From the NCBI GenBank assembly GCA_964496095.1, contig CAZBWU010000001.1, forward strand, positions 121,474 through 185,473: a stretch of 64,000 nt of DNA, written 5' to 3'. A model generated the notes under the pieces. It ran no database searches, was not told the DNA's origin, and saw nothing but the letters and a program-made list of their open reading frames with translations. Made by a program: the position numbers and the translations under genes. Shown here one piece after another: positions 18,591-61,790 of the stretch (position 1 is its first letter; every line of letters begins with the position of its first letter). This DNA comes from an uncultured Gammaproteobacteria bacterium. GTDB lineage: Bacteria; Patescibacteriota; Patescibacteriia; Magasanikbacterales; GWA2-37-8.

Positions 18591-19040
18591 ATGTCTTTAC
18601 ACATTCATACAATTGGACCTGCTAAAGGAGCAAAATCTGCCAGAAAATTACTTGGTAGAGGTAGTGCTTCCGGACGTGGTACAACCGCTGGCCGTGGTGG
18701 AAAAGGACAAACTGCCAGATCTGGTGGTAGTCATGGCACTGTGCGCCGTGGTTTTAAGTTTCAATTACAATCAACTCCAAAACTTCGTGGTTTCAATAGT
18801 TTCCGAAACAAACCAGCTGAAGTGTATTTGTCTGATTTAGAAAATAAATTTGCCGAAGGTGAAGTTGTAAATATTGCTTCTTTGAAAGAAAAAGATCTGA
18901 TTAATACTCAAGTCAAAACTGCTAAGGTTTTGTCTACTGGAGAAATCACCAAAAAATTAGTTATAGAAGGCCTCTTATTCACTAAAGCTGCAGCTGAGAA
19001 AATTAAAGCTGTTGGCGGTGAAATTCACCCTGTTAAATAA
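18591..19040 (+). CDS. rplO: 50S ribosomal protein L15 (no rpmD/L30 between S5 and L15)
   Basis: GRGSASGRGTTAGRGGKGQ motif. Confidence 0.95.
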   Translation: MSLHIHTIGPAKGAKSARKLLGRGSASGRGTTAGRGGKGQTARSGGSHGTVRRGFKFQLQSTPKLRGFNSFRNKPAEVYLSDLENKFAEGEVVNIASLKEKDLINTQVKTAKVLSTGEITKKLVIEGLLFTKAAAEKIKAVGGEIHPVK

Positions 19041-19127
19041 TTTCAAATTCCATAATATTTTGTTATACTTAATGTATTAAGAATAGGTAGGTAAAAGAAA
19101 TTACACGGGGTTTATTAATAATTTGAA

Positions 19128-19160
19128 ATTAAGATTTAAGCGTACCGCTTAAATCTTATT
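19128..19160 (+). promoter_or_regulatory. Perfect 14-bp hairpin TTAAGATTTAAGCG-tac-CGCTTAAATCTTAT immediately upstream of the secY start; extended -10 TGTTATACT at 19063-19071
   Basis: Inverted repeat read directly, 13 nt before ATG. Confidence 0.45.
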
Positions 19161-19173
19161 TAACAGGGTAAAT

Positions 19174-20448
19174 ATGTGGGAAAAAATACAGCAAATTTGG
19201 AAGATTAAAGATATTAGAAATAAGATCTTGTTTGTGGTTGGTATGCTCGTAGTTTTTAGATTGGTTGCTCATATCCCAGTGCCGGGTGTAAATATCGCAA
19301 ACTTACGTCAATTTTTAGCAGGTAACCAAATCTTTGGTTTGTTAGATGTTTTCTCTGGTGGTACCATGAAAAACTTTTCTATTGTCATGTTAGGTGTTGG
19401 CCCTTATATCACTTCTTCTATTATTTTCCAATTACTTACGATGATTTCTCCAAAGTTGGAAGAACTTTCTAAAGAAGGGGAAGCTGGACAACAAAAAATT
19501 AACATGTACACCAGATTGCTTACTGTGCCTTTGGCCTTTTTGCAATCTTATGCCATGATCAAAGTGCTTAACCGCTCTTCTTTGCCGATCATTACAGATT
19601 TGAGCTTTTTCCGTTTGGTCACAATTATGATGACCATTACCGCCGGTACTATGTTTTTGATGTGGATTGGCGAGCTTATTTCTGAGAAGAAAATTGGTAA
19701 TGGTGTATCATTTCTCATCTTTGCGGGTATCGTTTCCGGTTTTCCAGGCGCGATTCGTAATTTTTCTATCAACTATAACTCAGCTGATTTTTATACTTTG
19801 ATTTTGTTTGGTGCTATTGCTATCCTCACTGTGGTTGGCGTGGTATTTATCAATGAAGGTCAACGCAATATCCCTGTCAGTTATGCCAAGCAAGTGCGTG
19901 GTAATAATATGTATGGTGGTAATAGTTCTCACTTGCCACTACGCGTCAACATGTCTGGCGTGATTCCAATTATCTTTGCAATTTCCTTGGTTTTGTTCCC
20001 ATCTCTAATTGCTCAGTTTTTTGTCCAAGCCCAAACTGCTTGGTTGGCTAATTTGGCTGCCGGCACAATTAGATTATTCCAGAATCAATTATTCTACGGT
20101 ATTATCTATTTCTTGTTAGTATTTGGTTTTACCTATTTCTATACCGCTATTATCTTCCATCCGCAAAAAATGGCTGAGAATTTACAAAAACAAGGCGGGT
20201 TTATTCCTGGTATTCGTCCTGGCACAGAAACAGAAAAGTATTTGGGTCAGACCATGAACAGAATCAATCTTACCGGTGCTTTATTCCTTGGTGTGATTGC
20301 TATTTTGCCACTCTTGGCTCAATATTTTATGGGTACTCAAAATTTGGCTTTAGGTGGTACAAGTTTACTAATCGTAGTATCAGTCGCTATTGAAATTTCA
20401 AAACAAATCAGCGCTCAACTTACAATGCATGCTTACGATAATGTTTAA
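19174..20448 (+). CDS. secY: Preprotein translocase SecY
   Basis: 10 TM helices; LGVGPYITSSIIFQLL signature. Confidence 0.97.
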   Translation: MWEKIQQIWKIKDIRNKILFVVGMLVVFRLVAHIPVPGVNIANLRQFLAGNQIFGLLDVFSGGTMKNFSIVMLGVGPYITSSIIFQLLTMISPKLEELSKEGEAGQQKINMYTRLLTVPLAFLQSYAMIKVLNRSSLPIITDLSFFRLVTIMMTITAGTMFLMWIGELISEKKIGNGVSFLIFAGIVSGFPGAIRNFSINYNSADFYTLILFGAIAILTVVGVVFINEGQRNIPVSYAKQVRGNNMYGGNSSHLPLRVNMSGVIPIIFAISLVLFPSLIAQFFVQAQTAWLANLAAGTIRLFQNQLFYGIIYFLLVFGFTYFYTAIIFHPQKMAENLQKQGGFIPGIRPGTETEKYLGQTMNRINLTGALFLGVIAILPLLAQYFMGTQNLALGGTSLLIVVSVAIEISKQISAQLTMHAYDNV

Positions 20449-20544
20449 AGAATAGTTATAGGTGTAGGGTTGAAAATAAACAGATAAAATGATAAACTGA
20501 AAGGGCTGATGAAGCCTTTTTTGTTTAGATTATTCCTATTTTGT

Positions 20545-21201
20545 ATGAATAAAATTATTATCATGATGGGCCCGCCAGGATCTGGTAAGGGGACACAGGC
20601 CAAAAAAATTGCCCAAAAGTACGATTATTTGCATCTCTCCACCGGAGACTTGCTTCGCGCTTTGGCCAATAAAACAGATCTAAATGCCGATGAGGCCGAG
20701 GCGTTAGAGCAAATCAAAGTCGGTACTTTGGTTTCAGACAATCTGATTTTTAAATTGGTGTTTGGTAAAATAGAAAGCGAAATTAATTCTGGACGAGGAG
20801 TAGTGCTTGATGGCGCTATTCGTACTCTCAACCAAGCCAAAGAATATCAGAATTTTTTTACAGAGAAGAATTGGTTGGATGAAATTTTGGTTTTAGAAAT
20901 CGCGCTCAGTGATGAAGAGTCTTTGAATAGATTGGCTAGTCGTCGGGTTTGTAGTAGGTGTGGAGAAATTATTCCCGCCAGTGCCCACCTAGTTGGCTCA
21001 GCTTGTCCAAAATGCAAGGGTGAATTGATGGTAAGAGAAGACGATGATGTAGAGATTGTAAAGCAACGCATTGTAAAGCAAGGCAACAAAGCGATGGAGC
21101 CAATTATAAATTTTTATAAAGAACTTGGAATTTTAAAAACTGTTGATGGTAGTCAAACGATTGAGAATGTGGAAAATGATATTGCTAACATTTTAATTTA
21201 G
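20545..21201 (+). CDS. adk: Adenylate kinase (zinc-binding lid)
   Basis: GPPGSGKGTQA P-loop; lid CSRCGE...CPKCKGE; ORF-track start at 20509 includes a weak hairpin and is unlikely. Confidence 0.93.
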   Translation: MNKIIIMMGPPGSGKGTQAKKIAQKYDYLHLSTGDLLRALANKTDLNADEAEALEQIKVGTLVSDNLIFKLVFGKIESEINSGRGVVLDGAIRTLNQAKEYQNFFTEKNWLDEILVLEIALSDEESLNRLASRRVCSRCGEIIPASAHLVGSACPKCKGELMVREDDDVEIVKQRIVKQGNKAMEPIINFYKELGILKTVDGSQTIENVENDIANILI

Positions 21202-21204
21202 TTT

Positions 21205-22023
21205 ATGTTAATCAAAACCCCTGAAGAAATAAAATTACTCAAAGAAAACGGAGAGCTCATCGGGCAAATTTTGGAAGATTTGGCCAAGATGTGTAAACCC
21301 GGCGTAACTCCATTTGAGATAGACCAAGAAGCCGAAAAAAGAATTATTGCCGTTGGAGGCAAGCCGGCTTTTAAAGGGTATAAAACTAGAGTGGCTGATA
21401 TTCCTTTTCCAGCTACTATTTGTGCTTCTAGAAATGAAGAACTTGTGCATGGGATTCCTACCAAAGTTCCTTTGAAAGATGGAGATATTTTTACGATTGA
21501 TATTGGGATGGAATATCCAGCTCCAGGTAAAGGAGCAAAAGGAAAGGGTTTAAATAGAGGGTTTTTTTCAGACACAGCTCTTACTATTCCCATTGGTAAG
21601 ATTTCACCAAAAAACAGAGAGCTTATCCGTGTTACTCAGGAGTCTCTAGAGGCTGGAATTCGGGCTGTGAAGCCTGGTAATTCCGTAGCTGATATTGGTA
21701 AGGCTGTGGAAGATTATGTGAAGTCTCAGGGCAAATATGGCATTGTGCGTGATTTGGTTGGCCATGGGGTGGGGCATGAAGTGCATGAAGAGCCGAGAAT
21801 TCCAAATTATTATGATCGTAACTTGGATTATATAATTTTGAAACCTGGCATGGTGATAGCGGTGGAACCAATGTTGTCTTTGGGTGGGTGGAGAGTAGTG
21901 ACAGCTGACGATGGTTGGACAATCAATATGGCTGATGGGTCCATGAGTGCTCATTTTGAACATACAATTATTATTACCAAAAGTGGAAATATTGTGGCTA
22001 CCAGAAGACCAAGTGAAAAATAG
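21205..22023 (+). CDS. map: Methionine aminopeptidase type I
   Basis: pita-bread fold motifs GHGVGHEVHEEP, EPML. Confidence 0.95.
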   Translation: MLIKTPEEIKLLKENGELIGQILEDLAKMCKPGVTPFEIDQEAEKRIIAVGGKPAFKGYKTRVADIPFPATICASRNEELVHGIPTKVPLKDGDIFTIDIGMEYPAPGKGAKGKGLNRGFFSDTALTIPIGKISPKNRELIRVTQESLEAGIRAVKPGNSVADIGKAVEDYVKSQGKYGIVRDLVGHGVGHEVHEEPRIPNYYDRNLDYIILKPGMVIAVEPMLSLGGWRVVTADDGWTINMADGSMSAHFEHTIIITKSGNIVATRRPSEK

Positions 22024-22025
22024 AT

Positions 22026-22133
22026 TATCCTAAAATCTTAATGATTATTTTTCGCTTTCCTCGCCGCGAGGCTCAGGGATGGTCGCCTCGGGCGACCATA
22101 ACCCGCTTAAAAATAATCATTAAGATTAAAATA
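22026..22133. repeat. Nested-hairpin palindromic element (18-bp AT-rich outer stem TAATGATTATTTTTCGC/GCTTAAAAATAATCATTA, inner GC hairpins CCTCGCcgCGAGG and GGTCGCCtcGGGCGACC)
   Basis: Read directly; replaces the usual infA-rpmJ-rpsM-rpsK-rpoA continuation. Confidence 0.55.
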
Positions 22134-22137
22134 CTGT

Positions 22138-22557
22138 ATGAATTTTCTGGCAATTGATTATGGCACAAAAAATATTGGCCTAGCTCGGGCTAGTAGTAAT
22201 ATAGATTTGGTGTTGCCTTTTGGTAGTGTAGAAAATTCTGATCATCAAATAGCTATTAAAAAATTAGTAGAAATTATAACATCAGAAAAAATAGATAAAG
22301 TTATAGTTGGTTTACCGGCAGGTCTAGATGGAAGTGAAAATAAAAATACAATTAAGGTACGGGCTTTTGTTAAAGATTTAGAAAAAGAAATTGCCGTCAA
22401 AATTGAATTTATGACTGAGGTTTTTTCTTCGCAAGCTGGTGATAGAATGGGCACGGGAGTAAGCCGTGATGAGAAAGCCGCAATGGTAATTTTAGAAGGT
22501 TATTTATCCACCGCCGGCGGGCGGGGTGCCGCCTCGGGGCGGCAAAAAACTCAATAA
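22138..22557 (+). CDS. ruvX: Holliday-junction resolvase-like nuclease RuvX/YqgF
   Basis: LAIDYGTKNIGLA, KIDKVIVGLP motifs. Confidence 0.85.
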   Translation: MNFLAIDYGTKNIGLARASSNIDLVLPFGSVENSDHQIAIKKLVEIITSEKIDKVIVGLPAGLDGSENKNTIKVRAFVKDLEKEIAVKIEFMTEVFSSQAGDRMGTGVSRDEKAAMVILEGYLSTAGGRGAASGRQKTQ

Positions 22558-22567
22558 TTTAAATTGT

Positions 22568-23776
22568 ATGTTATTTTTTAGTACTATTTTGGGAGGTGAT
22601 ATTAAAGATCAGGCCGATGTCGTAGTGGGTAAGGTGGAAGATGTGGTAATAAAAATAACTGAAAGCGGTTTTCCGCGTGTTTTTGGGGTAATGATTACAG
22701 ATAAACAAAAGAACAAAAAAATGATTCCGGTTGTCCATATTGAGACTTTTGGTAAGGATTATCTAACTTTAAAAAATACTTTAGAAGAATTGGTTTTATC
22801 TGTGCCAGAGGATAAAAATTTAGTGCCATTAAGAGAGGTGGTTTTAGATAGGCAGATTGTTGATATGGCTGGTATCCGTGTAGTGCGAGTAAATGATTTG
22901 CAGTTTGGCATGGTACAAGGTCAGATGTCTTTGGTGGCTTTAGATATCGGTAAATTGGGATTACTCAGACGCCTTGGTTTGGGCGGTTTAAACTTTTTAA
23001 ATTTTTTACAGCCAGAATTATTGGAGTGGAAAAATGTGCGTCTGTTGGGGGATAAGCTCCAGCTATCTATGAACAGTAAAGAGATGATCAAACTTCATCC
23101 CGCCGACATTGCTAATATTATTGAAAAATTAAATTTGAACCAAGGTAGTGAATTGCTCCAATCTTTGGATAAAAAAACGGCAGCGCAAGTATTGGAAGAG
23201 TTAGAACCGGAATTACAAAAGATTTTGGTGCAAAATTTGGGAGCCGACCGCGCGGCTAGTGTTATGCAAAAAATGTCTATTGATGAGTTAGTAGATCTTT
23301 TGCAGATGCTTCCGGATTATAAATCAAAAGAAATCATGCAAAGTTTGCCGTCTGATAGTACGCAAAAAGTAAAAAACATTTTAGAATTTGATGAAAATAC
23401 TGGCGGTGGACTTATGACAACAGAATATGTTTCTGCTTTCCTTGGCAATACAGTCAAAGAAGTAGTAGAAAAAATAAAAAATTCTTACCAACTACATAGT
23501 AGTGTCTATTTTGTGTACATTACTGATGAAGAAGGGATTTTTAAAGGAGTAGTATCGGTAAGAAAATTATTGGTTGCCGAATCTGTTCAGACTATGAAAG
23601 AATTGGTTAGTGGGGAAAACAAAGCAACAGCAACGCCGGATCAAGATATTTTGGAAATCGCCGCTTTGATGACAAAGTATAATCTGACATCGATAGCGGT
23701 TTTGGATGAGAATAAAAAAATGTTAGGGGTAATTACTGTTGATGATGTGATGAGGCACTTTGTGCCCAATGCATAA
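22568..23776 (+). CDS. Soluble MgtE-N-terminal domain + CBS-pair protein (Mg2+-sensing module without membrane domain)
   Basis: Acidic helical MgtE-N-like region (ELEPELQKILVQNLGADRAASVMQKMSIDELVDLLQMLP) followed by two CBS motifs; ends before any TM segment. Confidence 0.7.
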   Translation: MLFFSTILGGDIKDQADVVVGKVEDVVIKITESGFPRVFGVMITDKQKNKKMIPVVHIETFGKDYLTLKNTLEELVLSVPEDKNLVPLREVVLDRQIVDMAGIRVVRVNDLQFGMVQGQMSLVALDIGKLGLLRRLGLGGLNFLNFLQPELLEWKNVRLLGDKLQLSMNSKEMIKLHPADIANIIEKLNLNQGSELLQSLDKKTAAQVLEELEPELQKILVQNLGADRAASVMQKMSIDELVDLLQMLPDYKSKEIMQSLPSDSTQKVKNILEFDENTGGGLMTTEYVSAFLGNTVKEVVEKIKNSYQLHSSVYFVYITDEEGIFKGVVSVRKLLVAESVQTMKELVSGENKATATPDQDILEIAALMTKYNLTSIAVLDENKKMLGVITVDDVMRHFVPNA

Positions 23777-23778
23777 CT

Positions 23779-23878
23779 TGTATTTGTTCTGGTAAAATTT
23801 TTGTGGTAGCCAGACTTATCCCGACAAAGTCGGGATTGCCCCTGTGGGGGTGCGATGGCTACAACAAAAATTTTACCA
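23779..23878. repeat. Nested-hairpin palindromic element (outer stem TTCTGGTAAAATTTTTGTGGTAGCC/GGCTACAACAAAAATTTTACCAGAA; inner ATCCCGACaaaGTCGGGAT and CCCCtgtGGGGG)
   Basis: Read directly; lies between the MgtE-N/CBS gene and the NRAMP gene. Confidence 0.55.
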
Positions 23879-23901
23879 GAACATGGTTTGAATTTTTAAT
23901 T

Positions 23902-25140
23902 ATGTTAGTAAAATCAAAGCATTTTTGGCCAAAGCTAATTTTCTTTTTTAGTGTAATTGGCCCTGGAATTATTGCTGCTAACGCAGACAATGACGCAGGC
24001 GGAATAACCACCTATTCTTTGGTGGGCGCTGATTTTGGCATGAAGATGCTATGGGTTTTATTTTTGATTACTTTTTCTTTAGCTATTACCCAGGAGATGG
24101 GTGTGCGTATTGGGTTGGTCACTCGCCAAGGTTTGGGCGGTGTTATTCGTGAAAATTTTGGTTTAAGATGGACCGCATTTGCGATGCTAGCCATGCTTGT
24201 TGCAAACCTCGGTACAATTACAGCTGAGTTTGCGGGTATTGCCTCATCTTTTGAAATATTTGATATTAGTAAGTATCTATCCGTGCCAATCGCGGCTTTA
24301 GTGGTGTGGCTTATTTTATTTAAGGGTTCTTTTAAGACAGCGCAAAAAGTCTTTTTAATTTTTTCGGCTTTTTATATTGTTTATATTATTAACGGTTTCA
24401 TTGTTCGTCCAGATTTTGGTCAGGCATTCAAAAGTTTGATTCATCCAACAATGGAATTTTCCAGTCCATTTTTGTTGGCCATGATAGCGCTTATTGGGAC
24501 GACTATTACTCCTTGGGGTCAGTTTTTTATTCAGTCATATGTGGTGGACAAAGGGCTTGATCTAAAACATTACAAGATAGAAAAGGCGGAAGTTTTTTTG
24601 GGTGCTTTTATTACCAATATTGTTAGTTTTTTTATTATCATCAGTACGGCTACCATCTTCTTTAATCATGGGCTAAAAATTTCTGATGCCAAAGACGCGG
24701 CTATGGGACTAGCACCAATCGCGGGTCATTTTGCGCAAGGCTTATTTGCTTTCGGATTGTTTAGTGCTTCTATGCTTGGCGCTTTTATTTTGCCGGTTGC
24801 GACTGCCTATGCTGTTTGTGAAGCGTTTGGTTGGGAGTATGGTTTTAATACTAACTGGCAAACTGGGAAGATTTTTTATAGTATAATTTTGATTTCAATT
24901 TTCTTGCCGGCATTACTAGTTTTAATACCAGGATTATCATTGTTAAAAATTATGATTTTGTCTCAGGATGTAAACGGCATTTTGTTGCCATTTATTTTAA
25001 TCTTTGTGATGAAAATAATTAATAATAAAAAAATAATGGGTGAACATGTTAATCATCGGGTAGGCAATACGGTCGCTTGGCTGACAATTGCGGGTATCAT
25101 TTTGGCCACAGTTGTTTTGGTGGCTTCAACTTTTATATAA
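23902..25140 (+). CDS. NRAMP-family divalent cation transporter (MntH/NRMT-like)
   Basis: 11-12 TM helices; NRAMP signature GPGIIAANADNDAGG in TM1. Confidence 0.75.
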   Translation: MLVKSKHFWPKLIFFFSVIGPGIIAANADNDAGGITTYSLVGADFGMKMLWVLFLITFSLAITQEMGVRIGLVTRQGLGGVIRENFGLRWTAFAMLAMLVANLGTITAEFAGIASSFEIFDISKYLSVPIAALVVWLILFKGSFKTAQKVFLIFSAFYIVYIINGFIVRPDFGQAFKSLIHPTMEFSSPFLLAMIALIGTTITPWGQFFIQSYVVDKGLDLKHYKIEKAEVFLGAFITNIVSFFIIISTATIFFNHGLKISDAKDAAMGLAPIAGHFAQGLFAFGLFSASMLGAFILPVATAYAVCEAFGWEYGFNTNWQTGKIFYSIILISIFLPALLVLIPGLSLLKIMILSQDVNGILLPFILIFVMKIINNKKIMGEHVNHRVGNTVAWLTIAGIILATVVLVASTFI

Positions 25141-25144
25141 AATT

Positions 25145-25750
25145 ATGTTGGCGATAGTTTTGGCTAGAAAAAATATTCGTGAATTTGACCAGACCGTTTC
25201 TTTATATACGCATGAAGTCGGTAAGGTAGAAGTTTTAGCCAAGGGTATTAAAAAAATTGTCAGTAAAAACTCTTCAAATTTGGAAGTTTTGTCGGTAGTG
25301 GATGTGGAGATTATTCAAGGTAAAGACATTGATTATTTAGGTAGAGTCCAGCCTATAAAAATTTTTAAAAATATTTATTCTGACTTAGATAGGATTTCCT
25401 TGGCAGCGTATGTGGTTAAAATTACCGATATCAATATTTTGGTAGGGGAGAAGGATGAAGATGTTTTTAAGCTAATTTTTAGCTTTTTAGAGTTTTTAGA
25501 TTCTAGTGAGTTAGTTCGATCTTCTCAGTTGGCCACTTCTTTTATCTTTAAGCTTTGGCATTGCCTGGGTTTTAGTGAGTCAGAAACCACATCCGATAGA
25601 TGGGTAGAGAAGAGTTGGGAGTCTGTTAATAGTCTGGATTTGAGCAGGGCAGAGATTGTTCAGAGTTATGATCTCGCTCATAAGTTTGCCCAGCGCCATA
25701 TTGGTGTAAAACTTGCCAAATTCATAGAAAATGATAGGATTACAGTGTAA
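25145..25750 (+). CDS. recO: DNA repair protein RecO (short form)
   Basis: N-terminal OB-fold pattern resembling RecO; weak. Confidence 0.5.
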   Translation: MLAIVLARKNIREFDQTVSLYTHEVGKVEVLAKGIKKIVSKNSSNLEVLSVVDVEIIQGKDIDYLGRVQPIKIFKNIYSDLDRISLAAYVVKITDINILVGEKDEDVFKLIFSFLEFLDSSELVRSSQLATSFIFKLWHCLGFSESETTSDRWVEKSWESVNSLDLSRAEIVQSYDLAHKFAQRHIGVKLAKFIENDRITV

Positions 25751-25768
25751 TTTTCTTATATTATAAAT

Positions 25769-27064
25769 ATGAAACAAGCGTTTATCAAAGACCTGGCAGG
25801 ACTAGTTGATCAAGAAGTAGAAATCAAAGGTTGGCTATACAACCGCCGTTCTTCAGGGCCGATTGCTTTTTTGGAATTACGTGATGGTTCTGGTTGGATT
25901 CAGGCAGTGGCAGTCAAAGCTGATTTGGATCTGGCGATTTGGGAAGAAATAGAAAAATCTACCCAAGAGTCTTCTGTGTTAGTAGTTGGTAACATTGCTA
26001 AGCATCCAAAAAAAGAAAATGTTTTTGAATTGCAAGTTAAAGATTTTAAAATTTTACAATTATCTCAAGAATATCCAATCGCGCTCAAAGATCATGGACC
26101 AGATTTTTTGATGGATAATCGTCATTTGTGGTTACGTAGTAAAAGGCAGTGGGCAATTTTACGCATACGCGATGCGGTCAAAACTGCTATTCATCAATAT
26201 TTACACCAAGAGAATTTTATCAGTGTTGATTCTCCGGTATTTACGCCTAACGCTTGTGAAGGTACTACGACACTTTTTCCTGTGCCTTATTTTGATTTAG
26301 GCGAAGCGTATCTTTCTCAGTCAGGACAGCTTTATATAGAAGCAGCGATTGCCTCAGTTGGTAAGTGTTATGATTTTGGGCCAGTGTTTCGCGCGGAGAA
26401 AAGCAAAACCAAACGTCACCTGACCGAATTTTGGATGATGGATGCGGAAGCAGCTTTTGCAGAGCATGAAGACAATATCAAGACCCAAGAAGGTTTACTT
26501 CGTTTTATTATTCGTCACTGTCTCAATAATTGCCAAGAAGAATTAAAAGTTTTAGAAAGAAATACTGAGCCCCTTGAAAAAGCTGACCAGCCATTTACTC
26601 GTTATACCTATGACCAAGCTATAAAAAAATTAAACGAGATGGGTTCAGATATTAAGTACGGCGAAGATTTGGGTAATGATGATGAAGGATTGCTTACCAA
26701 AGATTCAGCCGTGCCGGTCTTTATCGAAAAATGGCCAAAGAGTATCAAGCCATTCTACATGAAGCAAGACCCTGAAAATCCAGATTTGGTTTTGAATGAT
26801 GATTTGATTGCGACTGAAGGCGCAGGTGAAATTAGCGGTGGTAGTCAGCGTGAAGATAATTTTGAATTGTTGCTAGCAAAAATAAAAGCTGAAGGTTTGC
26901 CTCAGGCAGATTATGATTGGTATTTGGATCTGCGGAAATATGGCAGTGTACCACATTCTGGTTTTGGTATTGGTTTAGAGCGTATTGTGCGTTGGATTAC
27001 CGGCGTAGAGCATATCCGTGAGTGTATTCCTTTCCCTCGAACTATTAGTCGGTTGAGACCATAA
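25769..27064 (+). CDS. asnS: Asparaginyl-tRNA synthetase (class IIb; AspRS-type not excluded)
   Basis: Class II motifs FRAEKSKTKRHLTEFWMMDAE, GGSQRE, GFGIGLERIV. Confidence 0.75.
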   Translation: MKQAFIKDLAGLVDQEVEIKGWLYNRRSSGPIAFLELRDGSGWIQAVAVKADLDLAIWEEIEKSTQESSVLVVGNIAKHPKKENVFELQVKDFKILQLSQEYPIALKDHGPDFLMDNRHLWLRSKRQWAILRIRDAVKTAIHQYLHQENFISVDSPVFTPNACEGTTTLFPVPYFDLGEAYLSQSGQLYIEAAIASVGKCYDFGPVFRAEKSKTKRHLTEFWMMDAEAAFAEHEDNIKTQEGLLRFIIRHCLNNCQEELKVLERNTEPLEKADQPFTRYTYDQAIKKLNEMGSDIKYGEDLGNDDEGLLTKDSAVPVFIEKWPKSIKPFYMKQDPENPDLVLNDDLIATEGAGEISGGSQREDNFELLLAKIKAEGLPQADYDWYLDLRKYGSVPHSGFGIGLERIVRWITGVEHIRECIPFPRTISRLRP

Positions 27065-27156
27065 AATTAATTTATTTGCTATAAATATAGGGGTTTTTGT
27101 TCTTCATTAATATTGACAAAAACCCCTTATTAAACTATAATCTTACATAAGTATTA

Positions 27157-27238
27157 GCCGAAGTGGCGGAATTGGTAGACGCACACGACTCAAAATCGTG
27201 CGGAGAAATCCATGAGAGTTCGATTCTCTCCTTCGGCA
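27157..27238 (+). tRNA. tRNA-Leu (anticodon CAA), long variable arm, CCA not encoded
   Basis: Acceptor GCCGAAG/CTTCGGC, anticodon stem CACGA/TCGTG, loop CTCAAAA, T-arm GAGAGTTCGATTCTCTC. Confidence 0.9.
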
Positions 27239-27325
27239 CATTAAAAATTTGACATGAGTATGGCTACATGATACAGTTTTAATAGTATGATAATGACTGT
27301 CCAACAAAACTTTGCTTACTATTTT

Positions 27326-27400
27326 AGACGCTCTGGCTAGGGACGTGTTATTTTGTTAGTGCAAACAATAACGTCGCTCTAGCCAGAGCGTCTTTTTTTA
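27326..27400 (+). terminator. Long hairpin terminator (15-bp stem AGACGCTCTGGCTAG/CTAGCCAGAGCGTCT + T7)
   Basis: Read directly; preceded by TTGACA-N18-TACAGT near 27250. Confidence 0.65.
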
Positions 27401-27426
27401 TTTTACACAGTTTGTTCTTTACAAAA

Positions 27427-27770
27427 GGTCAGGGCGGTCGCCGGCAAGAGTAGAAAAAGTTTTTCTTTTCTTGCTGGCGACCTCCCTGCCAATGAGTGGG
27501 AGGAGAAAGGGTGGGGCATATGCCCTCCGTTGATCCGACTGTCACTCCTCCGATTGCTGAGCAGCCGGAGGGGCCTACTCCCTCCACGTCTGCTTCTAGT
27601 CCTTCTGGCAGCGACCCCCAGAGAGAGGCTGTGTCTTCGCCTCCGCAAGCTGACAAGCTCGCGGGCGGTAACTGGGGCAAGAAGCCTAGCCTAGGTTGGT
27701 AGAGATGACCAGGCAGGCGCGAGGGCCGCCCTGACCGAGATTCGGTTGGGGCGGCCGCTTTTATTTTAAA
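27427..27770. other. GC-rich (~62%) island bounded by 11-bp inverted repeats GGTCAGGGCGG/CCGCCCTGACC, with terminal GC hairpin + T-run; contains a 60-codon Pro/Ser-rich ORF with Shine-Dalgarno
   Basis: Composition shift versus AT-rich flanks; inverted repeats at 27427-27437 and 27727-27737. Confidence 0.5.
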
Positions 27771-27851
27771 TCTGTCAGAGTATAAGTTTTTTTATATTGT
27801 TATCTTATAGTATAGTATTCCAACGTAATTTTAGAATTTGGGATTTAGTAT

Positions 27852-28604
27852 TTAAGATTTTGCCGTTACAAGTGACCAAGTAAAGTTAAAAAATTGTTGT
27901 AACATTTTTGCTAGCACGGGGGAATCAATAATGATTGAGTTTAACTCGTTTTCTTTTAGGGCAAATAATGCAATTTTATTTCCATAGATATTCATGGTGC
28001 CATCAAATTCAAAATTAGCAGGTAGAAATTTTGTTTCTCTTAAGTCCAGTTCGTTCATCTGAAAGTGGGTGTCGCTTTTAGCATCATATCTCAAAAATGT
28101 TTTAGCGGAAACGCCTAGTTTTTTTCTTTCCTCAATCCAGTTCGGAAAATATTTAGGAAATAAATTAAAGTCCATTGGTGAAGATATAACAAGAATATGC
28201 TTGATTTTGTTTTTCTTAAAATTTTCCAACATTTCATTTCTGGCTCGGATGTAGCCTTCCTTGCCTTTATATAATTTTACTGTTGGCAAAACTTTTGCCG
28301 TATTTATTAGATTAGATAAGTCAGGCAAGATCTCCGTTATTTCTTTCTTTTTTTCTTCTAATACATCAAGCAAAATCTTTGGGTTTTCGGGGGTGTAATA
28401 GCGAACATTATTTCGTAGGCTTGAGTTAACTAGGCCTTTGTTTTTAAGTGTCTCTAAGGCTGTGTAGGTGCTTGTTCGGGGTAAATCTGCATTCTCAGCT
28501 GTTGTATAAGCAGAAGCCTCAACTAGTCTAAGGAGAGCAATATAGACCTTTGTTTCATGGTCTGACAGGCCGTATTTTTTTAGTACTTTAGTGACTTCTT
28601 GCAT
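27852..28604 (-). CDS. TrmB-family transcriptional regulator (wHTH + effector domain)
   Basis: N-terminal LSDHETKVYIALLRLVEASAYTTAENADLPRTSTYTALETLKNKGLV wHTH. Confidence 0.7.
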   Translation of the reverse strand: MQEVTKVLKKYGLSDHETKVYIALLRLVEASAYTTAENADLPRTSTYTALETLKNKGLVNSSLRNNVRYYTPENPKILLDVLEEKKKEITEILPDLSNLINTAKVLPTVKLYKGKEGYIRARNEMLENFKKNKIKHILVISSPMDFNLFPKYFPNWIEERKKLGVSAKTFLRYDAKSDTHFQMNELDLRETKFLPANFEFDGTMNIYGNKIALFALKENELNSIIIDSPVLAKMLQQFFNFTWSLVTAKS

Positions 28605-28753
28605 ATAGTCCAGTTTTTAGACGTCAATGTGTGAGTTGTTTATTGGCTTATAATAACAGAAATTAAGTAGTTTGTCAAGATTTTTATCCTAAAATAGGAC
28701 AATAAAATGCTCTCTTGGTATGCTAATGGTGTTCATTTATTGATTGTTTATCT

Positions 28754-29713
28754 ATGAAAAATACAAAGTTTATAGTGATAGGTATAGTTTTTATTGGATT
28801 AATTATTTTTGGTAAAGCCATATGGCCAAAACCAACAGAAATAAAAAAAATAAAAATGAGTTATCTTCCGGCTACTTGTGATCTGGTAAACTTTATTGCC
28901 TATGAGCAGGGATATTATAAGGATGAAGGACTAAATGTTGAGTTAACCAAATTTGAAACGAGTAATCAAGTTTCTGATGCCTTACTTGCGGGCAGAATTG
29001 ATGTCTCAGGTTGTTTTTCTTATCCTGTAGCTTTTTCTGTAGAGGCAAATCAACCTGATACATTTAGATCTATACGCTCAGTTATTACTTCTTCAGACTA
29101 TCCTTTTTTATGGATAGTAGCTCGTGCTAATGACCAGACAATAAAATCCATAAAGGATTTGGTGGGCAAGAAGGTCGGGCGTTTTCCAGGCACAACCACT
29201 GAGGCTCAGCTTAAGCATGCACTAAAATCAGTTGGAGTTGATCCAAACGCCGTTACTATGCAAGCGATTGCTCCGTCACAACAAATCAATGCTTTAGTAT
29301 CTGGTGTGGTTGATGCTCTGTATGTTTTAGAACCAATTCCGACAATAGCTGAGGAACAAGGTATTGGCAGAAAAGTTGAAGATATTGAAAAATATTTGGT
29401 AGAGCCAAATTATAATGCTTTGTTTGCGGTCACAAAAAATTATTATAAAAATAATAAGGGAATTGTTGGTAGAGTTATAAAAGCGCAAGATAGGGCCGTT
29501 GATTTTCTTAGAAAATATCCTACGGAAGCTAAACAAATTATGACAAAATATACTCCATTAAGTTCTGGTCAAGCTGCAAAGGTTGGTGTTGGTTATCCTC
29601 TAAAGAGCACTGAAACTATTGAGTATGCAAAGGTGCAAGAATATGCGGATTTACTCTTTAATGAAGGAGACCTAAAGATTAAAGTGGATATAGGAAAATT
29701 GTTTAGTAATTAA
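28754..29713 (+). CDS. ABC transporter substrate-binding protein, NitT/TauT (SsuA/NMT1/ThiY-like) family
   Basis: Signal anchor, periplasmic binding fold pattern; operon with matching ATPase and permease. Confidence 0.7.
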   Translation: MKNTKFIVIGIVFIGLIIFGKAIWPKPTEIKKIKMSYLPATCDLVNFIAYEQGYYKDEGLNVELTKFETSNQVSDALLAGRIDVSGCFSYPVAFSVEANQPDTFRSIRSVITSSDYPFLWIVARANDQTIKSIKDLVGKKVGRFPGTTTEAQLKHALKSVGVDPNAVTMQAIAPSQQINALVSGVVDALYVLEPIPTIAEEQGIGRKVEDIEKYLVEPNYNALFAVTKNYYKNNKGIVGRVIKAQDRAVDFLRKYPTEAKQIMTKYTPLSSGQAAKVGVGYPLKSTETIEYAKVQEYADLLFNEGDLKIKVDIGKLFSN

Positions 29714-29717
29714 AAGT

Positions 29718-30467
29718 ATGGTCAAGGAGTTGATTAAAATAGATCGCCTGAGCAAAGTATTTACTGATTCAAGCGGGCGCGAAACAAGAGTTATAAATGA
29801 AATCACCTTCAATATAAATGAAGGTGATTTCATAACTATATTTGGGCCTAACGGTTCAGGTAAGACCACATTACTGAATATTATTGCTAAGTTGGAAACG
29901 TTCACAGGTGGCGATATGGTTTATAGTAAATCCAATTTTAAGATTGGGTATGTCTTTCAAAATTATGATGAGTCGTTACTTCCTTGGAGAACGGTTGAAG
30001 AAAATATTGAGCTTCCTTTGGAAAAAGGTTTATACTCCGAACAGGAAATTACCGAACAAGTAAATAGAGTTATTAATCTTTTGAATTTAGAAAAATATAG
30101 GCAAAAGTATCCTTATATGCTTTCAGGGGGGAAAAAACAATTGACTGCGTTAGCTCGTACATTAGTGATCGAACCCGACCTTTTATTAATGGATGAACCG
30201 TTTTCTTCTTTGGATTTTGATACGACTGTAGAAATGGAACAGTTACTGTTGGATATTTGGGCGAAATTAAATATGACTATTCTATTTGTGTCTCACAACA
30301 TTGATGAAGCAATACTTTTAGCTGACAGAGTGTTAATCTTGTCACATAAATCTTCTATAGAAAATGTTGAAGTAAAACTTGATAGGCCGAGGAATCACGA
30401 TATGTTAGTTTCACAAAATTTTGTGGATATAAAAAAAGAAGTCATAGTCAAATATGGTAGAAGATAA
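29718..30467 (+). CDS. ABC transporter ATP-binding protein, NitT/TauT family
   Basis: GPNGSGKTTLL, LSGGKKQ, LLLMDEP. Confidence 0.85.
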   Translation: MVKELIKIDRLSKVFTDSSGRETRVINEITFNINEGDFITIFGPNGSGKTTLLNIIAKLETFTGGDMVYSKSNFKIGYVFQNYDESLLPWRTVEENIELPLEKGLYSEQEITEQVNRVINLLNLEKYRQKYPYMLSGGKKQLTALARTLVIEPDLLLMDEPFSSLDFDTTVEMEQLLLDIWAKLNMTILFVSHNIDEAILLADRVLILSHKSSIENVEVKLDRPRNHDMLVSQNFVDIKKEVIVKYGRR

Positions 30468-47976: not shown

Positions 47977-48054
47977 TTTCTAGCATTGACAAAATGACTT
48001 AGAGTGGCTATTATACCTCTATAAGAACCGAGAAATCGGCGATTTTGCGTATTT

Positions 48055-48107
48055 ACCCTGTTAAATGTCGCTTTGCGACACCCGACCTTGTCGGGATTTA
48101 ACAGGGT
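48055..48107. repeat. Nested-hairpin palindromic element (outer ACCCTGTTAAAT/ATTTAACAGGGT; inner GTCGCtttGCGAC and CCCGACcttGTCGGG)
   Basis: Read directly; shares a CCCGAC...GTCGGG hairpin with the element at 23779. Confidence 0.55.
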
Positions 48108-48124
48108 AAACCTATTAATAAATT

Positions 48125-54897: not shown

Positions 54898-54954
54898 AAC
54901 AAACTAGGATTTTAAATTATCTATAGATTAGGTAATTTAAAATCCTAGTTTGTT
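54898..54954. repeat. Perfect 21-bp inverted repeat AACAAACTAGGATTTTAAATT / AATTTAAAATCCTAGTTTGTT with 15-nt loop
   Basis: Read directly; sits at the left edge of a GC-rich island. Confidence 0.7.
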
Positions 54955-55485: not shown

Positions 55486-55574
55486 ATTAAAAATATTGAC
55501 CCAGTGAAATAATTCCGACCAAGTCGGAATTGCCACAGAGTGGTATTTCACGGGGTAAACCAATTAAGCCCTTC
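55486..55574 (+). ncRNA. Conserved structured leader RNA motif, copy 2 (upstream of rpsA)
   Basis: About 85% identical to 9791-9884 with compensatory base-pair changes in two helices. Confidence 0.6.
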
Positions 55575-56805: not shown

Positions 56806-56919
56806 TAAAGTTTAAAAAAACATAAAAATTACAAACCCTTCGTCAAAAACGAGGGGTTTGTTTATCCCTTGCCTTTTTGGTTGAAAAAAGGTAATATTTA
56901 TTAACAATTTAAAACAAAT

Positions 56920-57001
56920 ACATAATAATTTTTTAGCGTCCAAATGCCCTGCGGGCACCCCTGCGGGGGTTGGTGATGGACGCTGTAAAAAATTATTATG
57001 T
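56920..57001. repeat. Nested-hairpin element with conserved core GCGTCCAAA...GGTTGGTGATGGACGC (22-bp AT-rich outer stem, inner TGCCCtgcGGGCA and CCCCtgcGGGGG)
   Basis: Read directly; paralog at 61690-61790. Confidence 0.6.
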
Positions 57002-57032
57002 ATTCTTAAATCCTTATAAATAAAAAATCCTT

Positions 57033-61680: not shown

Positions 61681-61689
61681 CAATTAGCA

Positions 61690-61790
61690 AAAGACTAATT
61701 TTATTGCGTCCAAACAGCCACTCGCTTGGGCGAGCAGCTGCCTCTGCGGAGGTTGGTGATGGACGCTACCAAAATTAGTCTTTTTTTGTT
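61690..61790. repeat. Nested-hairpin element, second copy of the GCGTCCAAA...GGTTGGTGATGGACGC core; followed by T7 (probable terminator of the ATPase gene)
   Basis: Outer stem AAGACTAATTTTATTGCGTCC/GGACGC..AAAATTAGTCTT; inner hairpins of different sequence but same layout as 56920. Confidence 0.6.

What the first reader, a model, noticed from the sequence alone, without database searches (positions are those of the whole stretch)
22568..25140. Split Mg2+ sensor and transporter: soluble MgtE-N/CBS protein encoded next to an NRAMP-family transporter
The first gene has the cytoplasmic MgtE N-domain and CBS pair that gate the MgtE channel, but it ends before any membrane domain. The adjacent gene is an NRAMP homolog (GPGIIAANADNDAGG) rather than an MgtE pore. 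A nested-hairpin element separates them. NRAMP-related Mg2+ transporters (NRMT) are known, so this pair may be a two-component, Mg2+/ATP-gated NRAMP system not described before.
Basis: partly seen in the sequence, partly recalled or inferred. Interest (0 to 1): 0.6.

Follow-up and report, generated by a model that had tools for sequence, protein, structure and literature searches.

The report
Known NRMT transporter plus MgtE-like partner
This is an ordinary, well-conserved example of a two-gene unit first described in 2014: a magnesium/manganese importer of the NRAMP-related NRMT group, preceded by a soluble protein that resembles the magnesium-sensing cytoplasmic part of the MgtE channel and whose role has never been shown experimentally.

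Summary
Gene A (22568-23776, 402 aa) has an MgtE_N domain and a CBS pair and no membrane part. Gene B (23902-25140, 412 aa) is an NRAMP homolog. A very stable nested hairpin (23785-23883) lies between them.

The transporter belongs to the NRMT clade. It carries the DxxG/TxxT ion-site signature, and its best solved relative is EleNRMT (E 2e-107, against 3e-22 for classical Nramps).

The pairing is strongly conserved. Of 80 genome loci found with gene A, 72 have an NRMT immediately downstream. All 72 informative metagenome loci found with gene B have gene A next door.

The claim "not described before" is wrong. Shin et al. 2014 (PLoS Genet, PMC4072509) reported that most nrmT genes follow a gene for an MgtE cytoplasmic-domain homolog. 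They tested one pair and proposed feedback regulation.

Details added here:
- Gene A starts with a PRC-barrel, probably followed by a second one.
- It keeps MgtE Mg sites 4 and 6, but not sites 5 and 7 or the plug-helix sites.
- It keeps one of the five TtMgtE side chains that contact ATP.
- The hairpin is one copy of a lineage-restricted intergenic element, not an M-box and not specific to this pair.

Verdict: a new member of a known kind, of low interest.

The parts
22568..23776 (+). Gene A: soluble PRC-barrel / MgtE_N / CBS-pair protein, 402 aa (the MgtE-like accessory gene of nrmT operons)
   Evidence: Pfam MgtE_N and CBS. TIGR00400 matches the cytosolic part only. More than 100 full-length homologs of about 402 aa. 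The AF2 model matches the MgtE cytosolic domain 2yvy at TMt 0.83, rmsd 2.3 A.
22568..22777 (+). Gene A aa 1-70: PRC-barrel module
   Evidence: PF05239 is above its gathering score at aa 1-60 in relatives P0056, P0091, P0103 and P0119, and matches 11 of 15 members of A1. The beta-barrel is predicted with pLDDT above 80. The window protein itself is below threshold.
22820..23065 (+). Gene A aa 85-166: second beta module, possibly a divergent PRC barrel. It holds the most conserved motif of the N-terminal half (VLDxQIVDLxGxRVVRVNDLQF).
   Evidence: Invariant columns D94 Q96 D99 G102 V106 R107 N109 D110 L111. Beta strands in the model. PRC support is weak only: Pfam E 0.039 in one homolog and hhalign against module 1 at E 0.08.
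23093..23398 (+). Gene A aa 176-277: MgtE_N helical domain with D239 and D243, which correspond to TtMgtE D91 (Mg4) and D95 (Mg6)
   Evidence: Pfam. Alignment to 2yvy. Site definitions from PMC5882242. D243 is invariant and D239 at least 90% conserved in 115 sequences.
23420..23770 (+). Gene A aa 285-401: CBS pair with D392/D393 (TtMgtE D246/D247, Mg4) and R332 (TtMgtE R187). The protein ends before the plug helix.
23785..23883 (+). Nested-hairpin intergenic element: locus-specific AT-rich outer stem, inner stem CCA/TGG, two GC hairpins and a GYGATGG motif
   Evidence: Fold z = -6.8. No Rfam family and no M-box. Covariance model R1 finds three sense-strand copies in the window and copies only in L002, L005 and L006 among 80 loci. 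Absent from L001 and L003.
23902..25140 (+). Gene B: NRMT-clade SLC11/NRAMP transporter, 412 aa
   Evidence: Pfam Nramp E 2e-86. EleNRMT 7qia E 2e-107 over the full length, next best 3e-22.
23992..24003 (+). Gene B TM1 ion-site motif D31-A-G-G34 (DxxG; classical NRAMPs have DxxN)
   Evidence: Sequence. Aligned to EleNRMT D55/G58. Signature definition from PMC8806188.
24499..24510 (+). Gene B TM6 ion-site motif T200-T-I-T203 (TxxT; classical NRAMPs have A/CxxM), followed by W205 in place of the first alpha6b histidine

Best explanation
The two genes form an nrmT operon of the type described by Shin et al. 2014.

Gene B is an NRAMP-related transporter of the NRMT clade. It most likely imports hydrated Mg2+, and also Mn2+, down the membrane potential without proton coupling. 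This is inferred from EleNRMT, with which it shares all the ion-site residues and the loss of the proton-pathway histidines.

Gene A is a cytosolic protein made of one, probably two, PRC-barrel modules followed by the MgtE N-domain and a CBS pair.

The most likely mechanism is inferred, not shown. Gene A would dimerise through its CBS pairs as MgtE does. It would bind cytosolic Mg2+ at the retained acidic sites between the N-domain and CBS (Mg4: D239 and D393; Mg6: D243). In its compact Mg2+-bound form it would dock on the transporter, plausibly through the PRC barrels, and slow uptake. That would be feedback inhibition supplied in trans instead of by a fused domain.

I put the identity of the pair at about 0.95 and the feedback-gate mechanism at about 0.5.

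The hairpin between the genes is an unrelated lineage-specific intergenic element. At most it modulates the relative expression of A and B.
For: Identity of gene B:
- Pfam Nramp.
- EleNRMT is by far the best solved relative.
- D31, G34, T200, T203, E109 and Q355 correspond to EleNRMT D55, G58, T224, A227, E133 and Q379. W205 and I210 replace the two alpha6b histidines.

Identity of gene A:
- Domain searches and PDB matches.
- The predicted fold matches the Mg2+-bound MgtE cytosolic domain at TMt 0.83.

Conserved linkage in both directions:
- 72 of 80 genome loci found with gene A have an NRMT 2-321 nt downstream on the same strand. One locus is uninformative and seven lack it.
- All 72 partners have DxxG, and the 68 readable ones have TxxT/A/C.
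- Of 80 metagenome loci found with gene B, 71 have gene A immediately upstream, 1 has it adjacent on the other strand, and 8 have too little upstream DNA to tell.

Link to Mg2+:
- M-box riboswitches lie directly upstream of gene A in L076, L080 and L086.
- The Mg4 and Mg6 ligands are kept and conserved.

Published precedent: PMC4072509.
Against: - No interaction between A and B has been shown anywhere.
- In Shin et al. the transporters rescued Mg2+ uptake without the accessory gene, and co-expressing the A. capsulatum pair did not improve rescue.
- That A. capsulatum transporter behaved mainly as a Mn2+ importer, so the ligand sensed and the ion carried here could be Mn2+.
- The Mg5 ligands are lost (N372, R396). 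The Mg7 position is variable (Q207). The plug-helix sites Mg2 and Mg3 do not exist.
- Seven loci keep gene A without an adjacent NRMT, three of them in the same secY-adk-map-ruvX slot as the window. Gene A may therefore have a function that does not need the transporter next door.
- There is no M-box in the window.
- Both locus sets are the best 80 hits and so are biased towards relatives of the query.
Confidence: 0.85

Rival explanations
1. Gene A is a metal chaperone or buffer. It would bind Mg2+ or Mn2+ released by the transporter and hand it on, and would not gate transport. Shin et al. offered this as their alternative.
For: Shin et al. propose it explicitly. Acidic metal sites are retained. 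The transporter works without gene A in heterologous hosts.
Against: The MgtE cytosolic domain is known as a low-affinity millimolar sensor that changes conformation, not as a carrier (PMC5882242). Mg2+ is millimolar in the cytosol and needs no chaperone. This is an inference from established knowledge.
Confidence: 0.1
2. Gene A is an independent cytosolic Mg2+/nucleotide sensor. Its target is not the transporter but, for example, ribosome- or RNA-associated processes reached through the PRC barrels. The adjacency to nrmT would reflect co-regulation only.
For: Orphan copies without an adjacent NRMT occur in L010, L015, L041, L045, L060, L072 and L073. In CPR genomes these sit in the conserved secY-adk-map-ruvX neighbourhood. 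PRC barrels occur in RimM and other non-transport proteins (general knowledge).
Against: All 72 informative NRMT loci have gene A adjacent, and 71 of them in the fixed order A then B. That is tighter than co-regulation usually gives. Whether the genomes with orphan copies carry an NRMT elsewhere could not be checked.
Confidence: 0.15
3. Gene A is a truncated MgtE pseudogene that lies next to an unrelated MntH-type manganese transporter by chance.
For: None beyond the domain content.
Against: Gene A is a family of hundreds of ~402-aa proteins with conserved N- and C-termini; P400 and A402 are invariant. It has an extra PRC region that is not part of the TtMgtE cytosolic domain it aligns to: the alignment starts at gene A aa 173 and near residue 25 of MgtE. 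Linkage is conserved across phyla. Gene B has the NRMT site, not the MntH site.
Confidence: 0.01

Closest known systems
NrmT/NRMT operons with an MgtE-like fragment gene (Shin et al. 2014, PLoS Genet; C. acetobutylicum Ca_c0685, A. capsulatum Acp2976/Acp2977)
   Same: The gene order is the same (MgtE cytoplasmic-domain homolog, then the NRAMP-related transporter, on one strand). Both gene families are the same. Acidobacterial and Negativicutes loci recovered here align over the full length of both window proteins.
   Different: There is no M-box riboswitch here; gene A follows ruvX by 10 nt inside a housekeeping cluster. The host is a candidate-phyla-radiation (Magasanikbacteria-like) genome. 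The PRC-barrel N-terminal region was not mentioned in that paper. Shin et al. report the C. acetobutylicum homolog as split into two genes, whereas here it is one gene.
EleNRMT (Eggerthella lenta NRMT; PDB 7qia, 7qic, 7qji, 7qjj; Ramanadane et al. 2022, eLife)
   Same: Alignment over the full length at E 2e-107. The same D/G/T ion-site positions, E133 and Q379 equivalents, and Trp in place of the first alpha6b His.
   Different: TM6 is TxxT rather than TxxA. The second alpha6b His position is Ile rather than Asn. EleNRMT was studied alone, and no accessory protein comes up in the passages of that paper I searched: 'CBS' and 'operon' occur nowhere and MgtE is cited only as another transporter.
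MgtE Mg2+ channel (T. thermophilus; PDB 2yvx, 2yvy, 2zy9, 5x9h)
   Same: The N-domain plus CBS pair is homologous (E 8e-32, 30% identity, rmsd 2.3 A). The Mg4 and Mg6 ligands and R187 are kept.
   Different: There is no plug helix and no five-helix pore. The Mg1, Mg2, Mg3 and Mg5 ligands are missing. F227, needed for ATP binding, is Leu. About 170 extra N-terminal residues carry PRC-barrel(s).
CBS-regulated transporters in cis (CNNM/CorC/CorB, ClC, OpuC)
   Same: A cytosolic CBS pair is thought to couple ligand binding to transporter activity. These proteins appear among the structural neighbours of the CBS part.
   Different: In those proteins the CBS pair is fused to the transporter or is part of an ABC ATPase subunit. 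Here it is a separate polypeptide next to a LeuT-fold carrier.

Membership tests
NRMT clade of SLC11/NRAMP (gene B) | Nramp (LeuT-type) family membership | tested here: met
   PF01566 E 2e-86, profile positions 1-356 of 357
NRMT clade of SLC11/NRAMP (gene B) | TM1 DxxG instead of DxxN (signature given in PMC8806188) | tested here: met
   D31-A-G-G34, aligned to EleNRMT D55/G58. Also present in all 72 partner genes.
NRMT clade of SLC11/NRAMP (gene B) | TM6 TxxA/T instead of A/CxxM | tested here: met
   T200-T-I-T203, aligned to EleNRMT T224/A227
NRMT clade of SLC11/NRAMP (gene B) | Closer to a characterised NRMT than to classical Nramps | tested here: met
   7qia at E 2e-107 against 3e-22 for the best other Nramp chain. 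MntH NCBIfam models score far below their cut-offs.
NRMT clade of SLC11/NRAMP (gene B) | Loss of the alpha6b histidines of the proton pathway | tested here: met
   W205 and I210 lie at the positions of EleNRMT W229 and N234
NRMT clade of SLC11/NRAMP (gene B) | Mg2+ transport without H+ coupling | not testable with these tools
   Needs proteoliposome or complementation assays. One clade member with the same neighbour gene preferred Mn2+.
MgtE-like accessory protein of nrmT operons (gene A; Shin et al. 2014) | Homologous to the MgtE cytoplasmic N-domain plus CBS pair | tested here: met
MgtE-like accessory protein of nrmT operons (gene A; Shin et al. 2014) | No membrane domain | tested here: met
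   The protein ends at aa 402, which corresponds to about TtMgtE residue 256. TIGR00400 matches profile 19-248 of 450 only.
MgtE-like accessory protein of nrmT operons (gene A; Shin et al. 2014) | Encoded immediately upstream of an nrmT gene on the same strand | tested here: met
   125-nt spacer in the window. 72 of 80 and 71 of 72 in the two locus sets.
MgtE-like accessory protein of nrmT operons (gene A; Shin et al. 2014) | M-box riboswitch leader (frequent in the family, not defining) | tested here: not met
   No RF00380 in 22000-25600 at E<=10 or anywhere in the window. Present in 3 of 18 distant loci.
Full-length MgtE channel | C-terminal five-helix pore domain and plug helix with Mg1-Mg3 sites | tested here: not met
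   No MgtE TM-domain match. TIGR00400 scores 145.6 bits against a cut-off of 232.75.
ATP-modulated MgtE-type CBS sensor | ATP-contact residues Y170, R187, D188, N203, F227 (PMC5529423) | tested here: inconclusive
   By the alignment these are F315, R332, K333, S348 and L373. Only Arg is kept, and the pi-stacking Phe is Leu. Another nucleotide-binding mode cannot be excluded.
M-box or other Rfam riboswitch (intergenic hairpin) | Match to a curated covariance model | tested here: not met
   The only match is a chance-level MtlS hit on the opposite strand (29 bits against a gathering score of 80).

The most novel reading that the evidence does not exclude
The PRC-MgtE_N-CBS protein is a detachable regulatory subunit. 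It would dock through its tandem PRC barrels on the cytosolic face of the NRMT carrier and close it when Mg2+ fills the retained Mg4 and Mg6 sites. That would be a trans-acting version of MgtE gating applied to a LeuT-fold transporter. It has been proposed (Shin et al. 2014) but never demonstrated, and the PRC docking module has not been discussed in the literature I could search.
Probability: 0.45. Interest if true: 0.5.

Novelty: new member of a known kind. Interest (0 to 1): 0.2.

Why it matters
The locus itself changes little, because the association was published in 2014 and NRMT structure and transport were worked out in 2022. Its value is as supporting data. The linkage is close to obligatory in the loci retrieved with the transporter: all 72 informative ones have gene A adjacent. 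It also extends into the small genomes of the candidate phyla radiation. The accessory protein has a conserved PRC-barrel region and keeps only a subset of the MgtE metal sites. Together these give concrete mutants and constructs for testing the still-open question of what the accessory protein does.

Tried and rejected
- Truncation pseudogene: rejected. The family has a conserved length and conserved ends.
- Classical MntH: rejected. The site residues are NRMT-type and the best PDB match is EleNRMT.
- Hairpin as an M-box or any other Rfam family: rejected.
- Hairpin as a conserved part of the operon: rejected. The spacers are 13-22 nt in L001 and L003, and the element is found in only 3 of 72 paired loci.
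- Hairpin as a tRNA-like gene: ARAGORN finds nothing there.
- A second MgtE or Nramp paralog in the window: none by tblastn. The rest of the genome is not available.
- Promoter and terminator scans of the region were no better than shuffles.
- The first AF2 run, with 15 sequences, was too poor to use (pLDDT 65). It was repeated with 115 sequences.
- Internal duplication of the PRC module: hhalign E 0.08 and Pfam E 0.039 in one homolog. This is suggestive only.
- Literature searches for later work on the accessory protein found nothing beyond Shin 2014 and the eLife 2022 paper.
Full report
**What is in the sequence**

The interval holds two co-directional genes on the + strand. Upstream lies a housekeeping run: uL15 (rplO; my reading of the 18591-19040 translation) and genes whose translations read as secY, adk and map, then ruvX (Pfam). 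recO follows downstream (Pfam).

Gene A (22568-23776, 402 aa) has Pfam MgtE_N at aa 176-277 (E 4e-26) and a CBS pair (E 1e-17). The full-length MgtE equivalog TIGR00400 aligns only to profile positions 19-248 of 450 and scores 145.6 bits against a cut-off of 232.75. The pore domain is therefore absent.

Gene B (23902-25140, 412 aa) matches Pfam Nramp end to end (E 2e-86).

The 125-nt spacer contains a nested hairpin at 23785-23883. Its MFE is -58.5 kcal/mol, with z = -6.8 against dinucleotide shuffles.

**Gene B is an NRMT, not a classical NRAMP**

The eLife 2022 paper on EleNRMT defines the clades by their ion-site signature. Classical transporters have DxxN in TM1 and A/CxxM in TM6. NRMTs have DxxG and TxxA/T (PMC8806188).

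Gene B has D31-A-G-G34 and T200-T-I-T203. Against all PDB sequences its best match is EleNRMT (7qia) at E 2e-107 over residues 10-407. The next chain, a classical Nramp, reaches only 3e-22.

In that alignment the following residues correspond:

| Window gene B | EleNRMT |
|---|---|
| D31 | D55 |
| G34 | G58 |
| E109 | E133 |
| T200 | T224 |
| T203 | A227 |
| Q355 | Q379 |

The two alpha6b histidines of the proton pathway are W205 and I210 here, and W229 and N234 in EleNRMT.

By inference from EleNRMT, the protein should carry Mg2+ and Mn2+, not Ca2+, and should not be proton-coupled. Substrate preference cannot be read with certainty. Shin et al. found that the A. capsulatum clade member, which has the same neighbour gene, behaved mainly as a Mn2+ importer.

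**Gene A is a conserved soluble protein, not a broken MgtE**

The protein database search returned more than 100 full-length relatives of 396-417 aa at 45-99% identity. Almost all are from Patescibacteria (Magasanik-, Peregrini-, Gracili- and Komeilibacteria). Their N-termini (MLFFS...) and C-termini (DDxMRHFVPxA) are conserved; P400 and A402 are invariant in 115 sequences.

Residues 173-395 align to the T. thermophilus MgtE cytosolic domain (2yvy) at E 8e-32. An AlphaFold2 model built on 115 sequences (pLDDT 78) shows four parts:
- a beta module at aa 1-70
- a second beta module at aa 85-166
- a helical domain at aa 178-272
- a CBS pair at aa 285-401

Foldseek places the C-terminal 230 residues on the Mg2+-bound MgtE cytosolic domain at TMt 0.83 and rmsd 2.3 A.

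The first beta module is a PRC barrel. PF05239 is above its gathering score at aa 1-60 in several relatives and matches 11 of 15 sampled members.

The second module carries the most conserved motif of the N-terminal half. It has only weak PRC similarity: Pfam E 0.039 in one homolog, and hhalign E 0.08 against module 1.

**Which MgtE sensor features survive**

I used the site definitions of Maruyama et al. 2018 (PMC5882242) and the alignment.

| TtMgtE site | TtMgtE residues | Gene A | Status |
|---|---|---|---|
| Mg4 | D91 / D247 | D239 / D393 | kept; D393 invariant, D239 at least 90% conserved |
| Mg6 | D95 | D243 | kept; invariant |
| Mg5 | D226 / D250 | N372 / R396 | lost |
| Mg7 | E59 | Q207 | variable |
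| Mg2, Mg3 | E258, D259 (plug helix) | none | protein ends first |
| Mg1 | D432 (pore) | none | no membrane domain |

For ATP, Tomita et al. 2017 (PMC5529423) list contacts from Y170, R187, D188, N203 and F227 (V207 by main chain only). Here these side-chain positions are F315, R332, K333, S348 and L373. Only the arginine is kept. F227, whose alanine mutant abolishes ATP binding, is leucine.

The sequence therefore supports a Mg2+-dependent closure between the N-domain and the CBS pair. It does not support MgtE-type ATP modulation.

**The pairing is conserved in both directions**

I scanned one genome per species with the gene A alignment, which gave 80 loci. In 72 of them tblastn finds a gene B homolog 2-321 nt downstream on the same strand. 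One locus ends at the gene. Seven lack gene B: L010, L015, L041, L045, L060, L072 and L073.

The paired loci come from many CPR lineages and also from Margulisbacteria, Chloroflexi (Longilinea, Thermomicrobiales), Negativicutes and Acidobacteria. All 72 partners have DxxG, and the 68 readable ones have TxxT/A/C.

The reverse scan of metagenome contigs with a gene B alignment also gave 80 loci:
- 71 have gene A immediately upstream.
- 1 has it adjacent on the opposite strand.
- 8 have under 400 nt of upstream DNA and cannot be judged.

Both sets are the best 80 of a larger number of hits, so they lean towards relatives of the query.

M-box riboswitches (RF00380, 120-164 bits) sit directly upstream of gene A in 3 of 18 distant loci. 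This ties the operon to magnesium. The window has none.

**This is already in the literature**

Shin et al. [quoted passage not shown] They call the units mgtE-nramp operons.

They also show that the transporters rescue Mg2+ uptake without that gene, and that co-expressing the A. capsulatum pair gave no further rescue. They speculate that the fragment provides cytoplasmic feedback regulation or acts as a metal chaperone.

I found no later paper that resolves the function, and none that mentions the PRC region.

**Mechanism**

Shown here:
- the identities of both proteins
- their tight linkage
- retention of two interdomain Mg sites
- the link to M-boxes in relatives

Inferred:
- Gene A dimerises and closes on binding Mg2+, as the MgtE cytosolic domain does.
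- It docks on the NRMT, with the PRC barrels as the obvious candidate interface.
- It thereby limits uptake when cytosolic Mg2+ is sufficient.

I give this about 0.5. The rivals are a chaperone or buffer role (0.1) and an independent sensor that is merely co-regulated (0.15). Orphan copies of gene A in the same secY-adk-map-ruvX slot, with no NRMT next door (L010, L041, L045), give some support to the last of these.

**The hairpin**

It is not a riboswitch and not part of the system. The closest relatives of gene A have spacers of 13 and 22 nt without it (L001, 91% identity; L003, 77%). L002, L005 and L006 have an element of the same architecture at the same place, but with completely different outer-stem sequences.

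Six copies align on a core of CCA-RAY ... GC hairpin ... GYGA-TGG, and the inner stem covaries.

A covariance model finds three copies in the window (23796, 56926 and 61696). All are on the sense strand, in spacers between + strand genes. Across 640 kb of related loci it finds copies only in L002, L005 (two) and L006.

This is a lineage-restricted intergenic element of unknown role. It is recorded under things noticed in passing.

**Verdict**

It is a new member of a known kind, with interest 0.2. The open point, now with a specific set of candidate residues and a candidate docking module, is what the accessory protein does.

Noticed in passing
window 23785-23883, 56917-57004, 61689-61784; L002:5231-5296, L005:5232-5307 and 2651-2725, L006:5269-5344: A family of about 70-100-nt intergenic elements. 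Each has a perfect AT-rich outer stem of 15-25 bp whose sequence differs at every locus. Inside are a covarying inner stem ending in CCA/TGG, one or two GC-rich hairpins, and a conserved GYGATGG motif. The window copies and the operon-spacer copies in L002, L005 and L006 lie on the sense strand between co-directional genes. There is no Rfam match. The element was found only in the window's nearest Magasanikbacteria-like relatives.
   Followed up: partly
window 22034-22127, 48052-48110, 55499-55557, 19023-19173, 54898-54954, 27326-27393: Further long intergenic hairpins, several of them an AT-rich stem enclosing two short GC hairpins. Model R1 does not match them at these coordinates; its one weak hit (54907-54945, E 0.012, both strands) lies inside the 54898-54954 palindrome. 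The outer arms at 19023/19156 and 48052/48096 share the sequence ACCCTGTTAAAT. The genome appears rich in structured spacers.
   Followed up: no
window 22568-25140 compared with L001-L008: The two genes diverge discordantly. L001 has gene A at 91% identity but gene B at only 71%. L002, L003, L004, L007 and L008 have gene A at 71-77% but gene B at 84-88%. This suggests recombination or gene replacement with a breakpoint near the A/B spacer, which is where the hairpin element sits.
   Followed up: no
L010, L041, L045 (also L015, L060, L072, L073): Gene A homologs with no adjacent NRMT. In the three CPR loci gene A keeps the same position after secY-adk-map-ruvX as in the window, and unrelated genes follow it.
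   Followed up: partly
L076:3617-3781, L080:3123-3297, L086:1424-1593: M-box (RF00380) riboswitches at 120-164 bits, 90-220 nt upstream of the gene A homolog. L076 is from Negativicutes, L080 from Acidobacteria and L086 from a metagenome. The CPR loci included in that scan (L046, L047, L058) had none.
   Followed up: yes
window 27400-27760: A GC-rich island (GC 0.46 in the 27500-27999 bin, 0.32-0.43 in all other bins of 20000-30000) downstream of the only tRNA in the window (tRNA-Leu CAA, 27157-27239). It contains several hairpins. It also holds a 60-aa Pro/Ser-rich ORF (ATG 27520 to 27702: MPSVDPTVTPP...GGNWGKKPSLGW), preceded by GGGAGGAG and followed by a GC-rich stem and a T run. There is no Rfam family above chance.
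   Followed up: no
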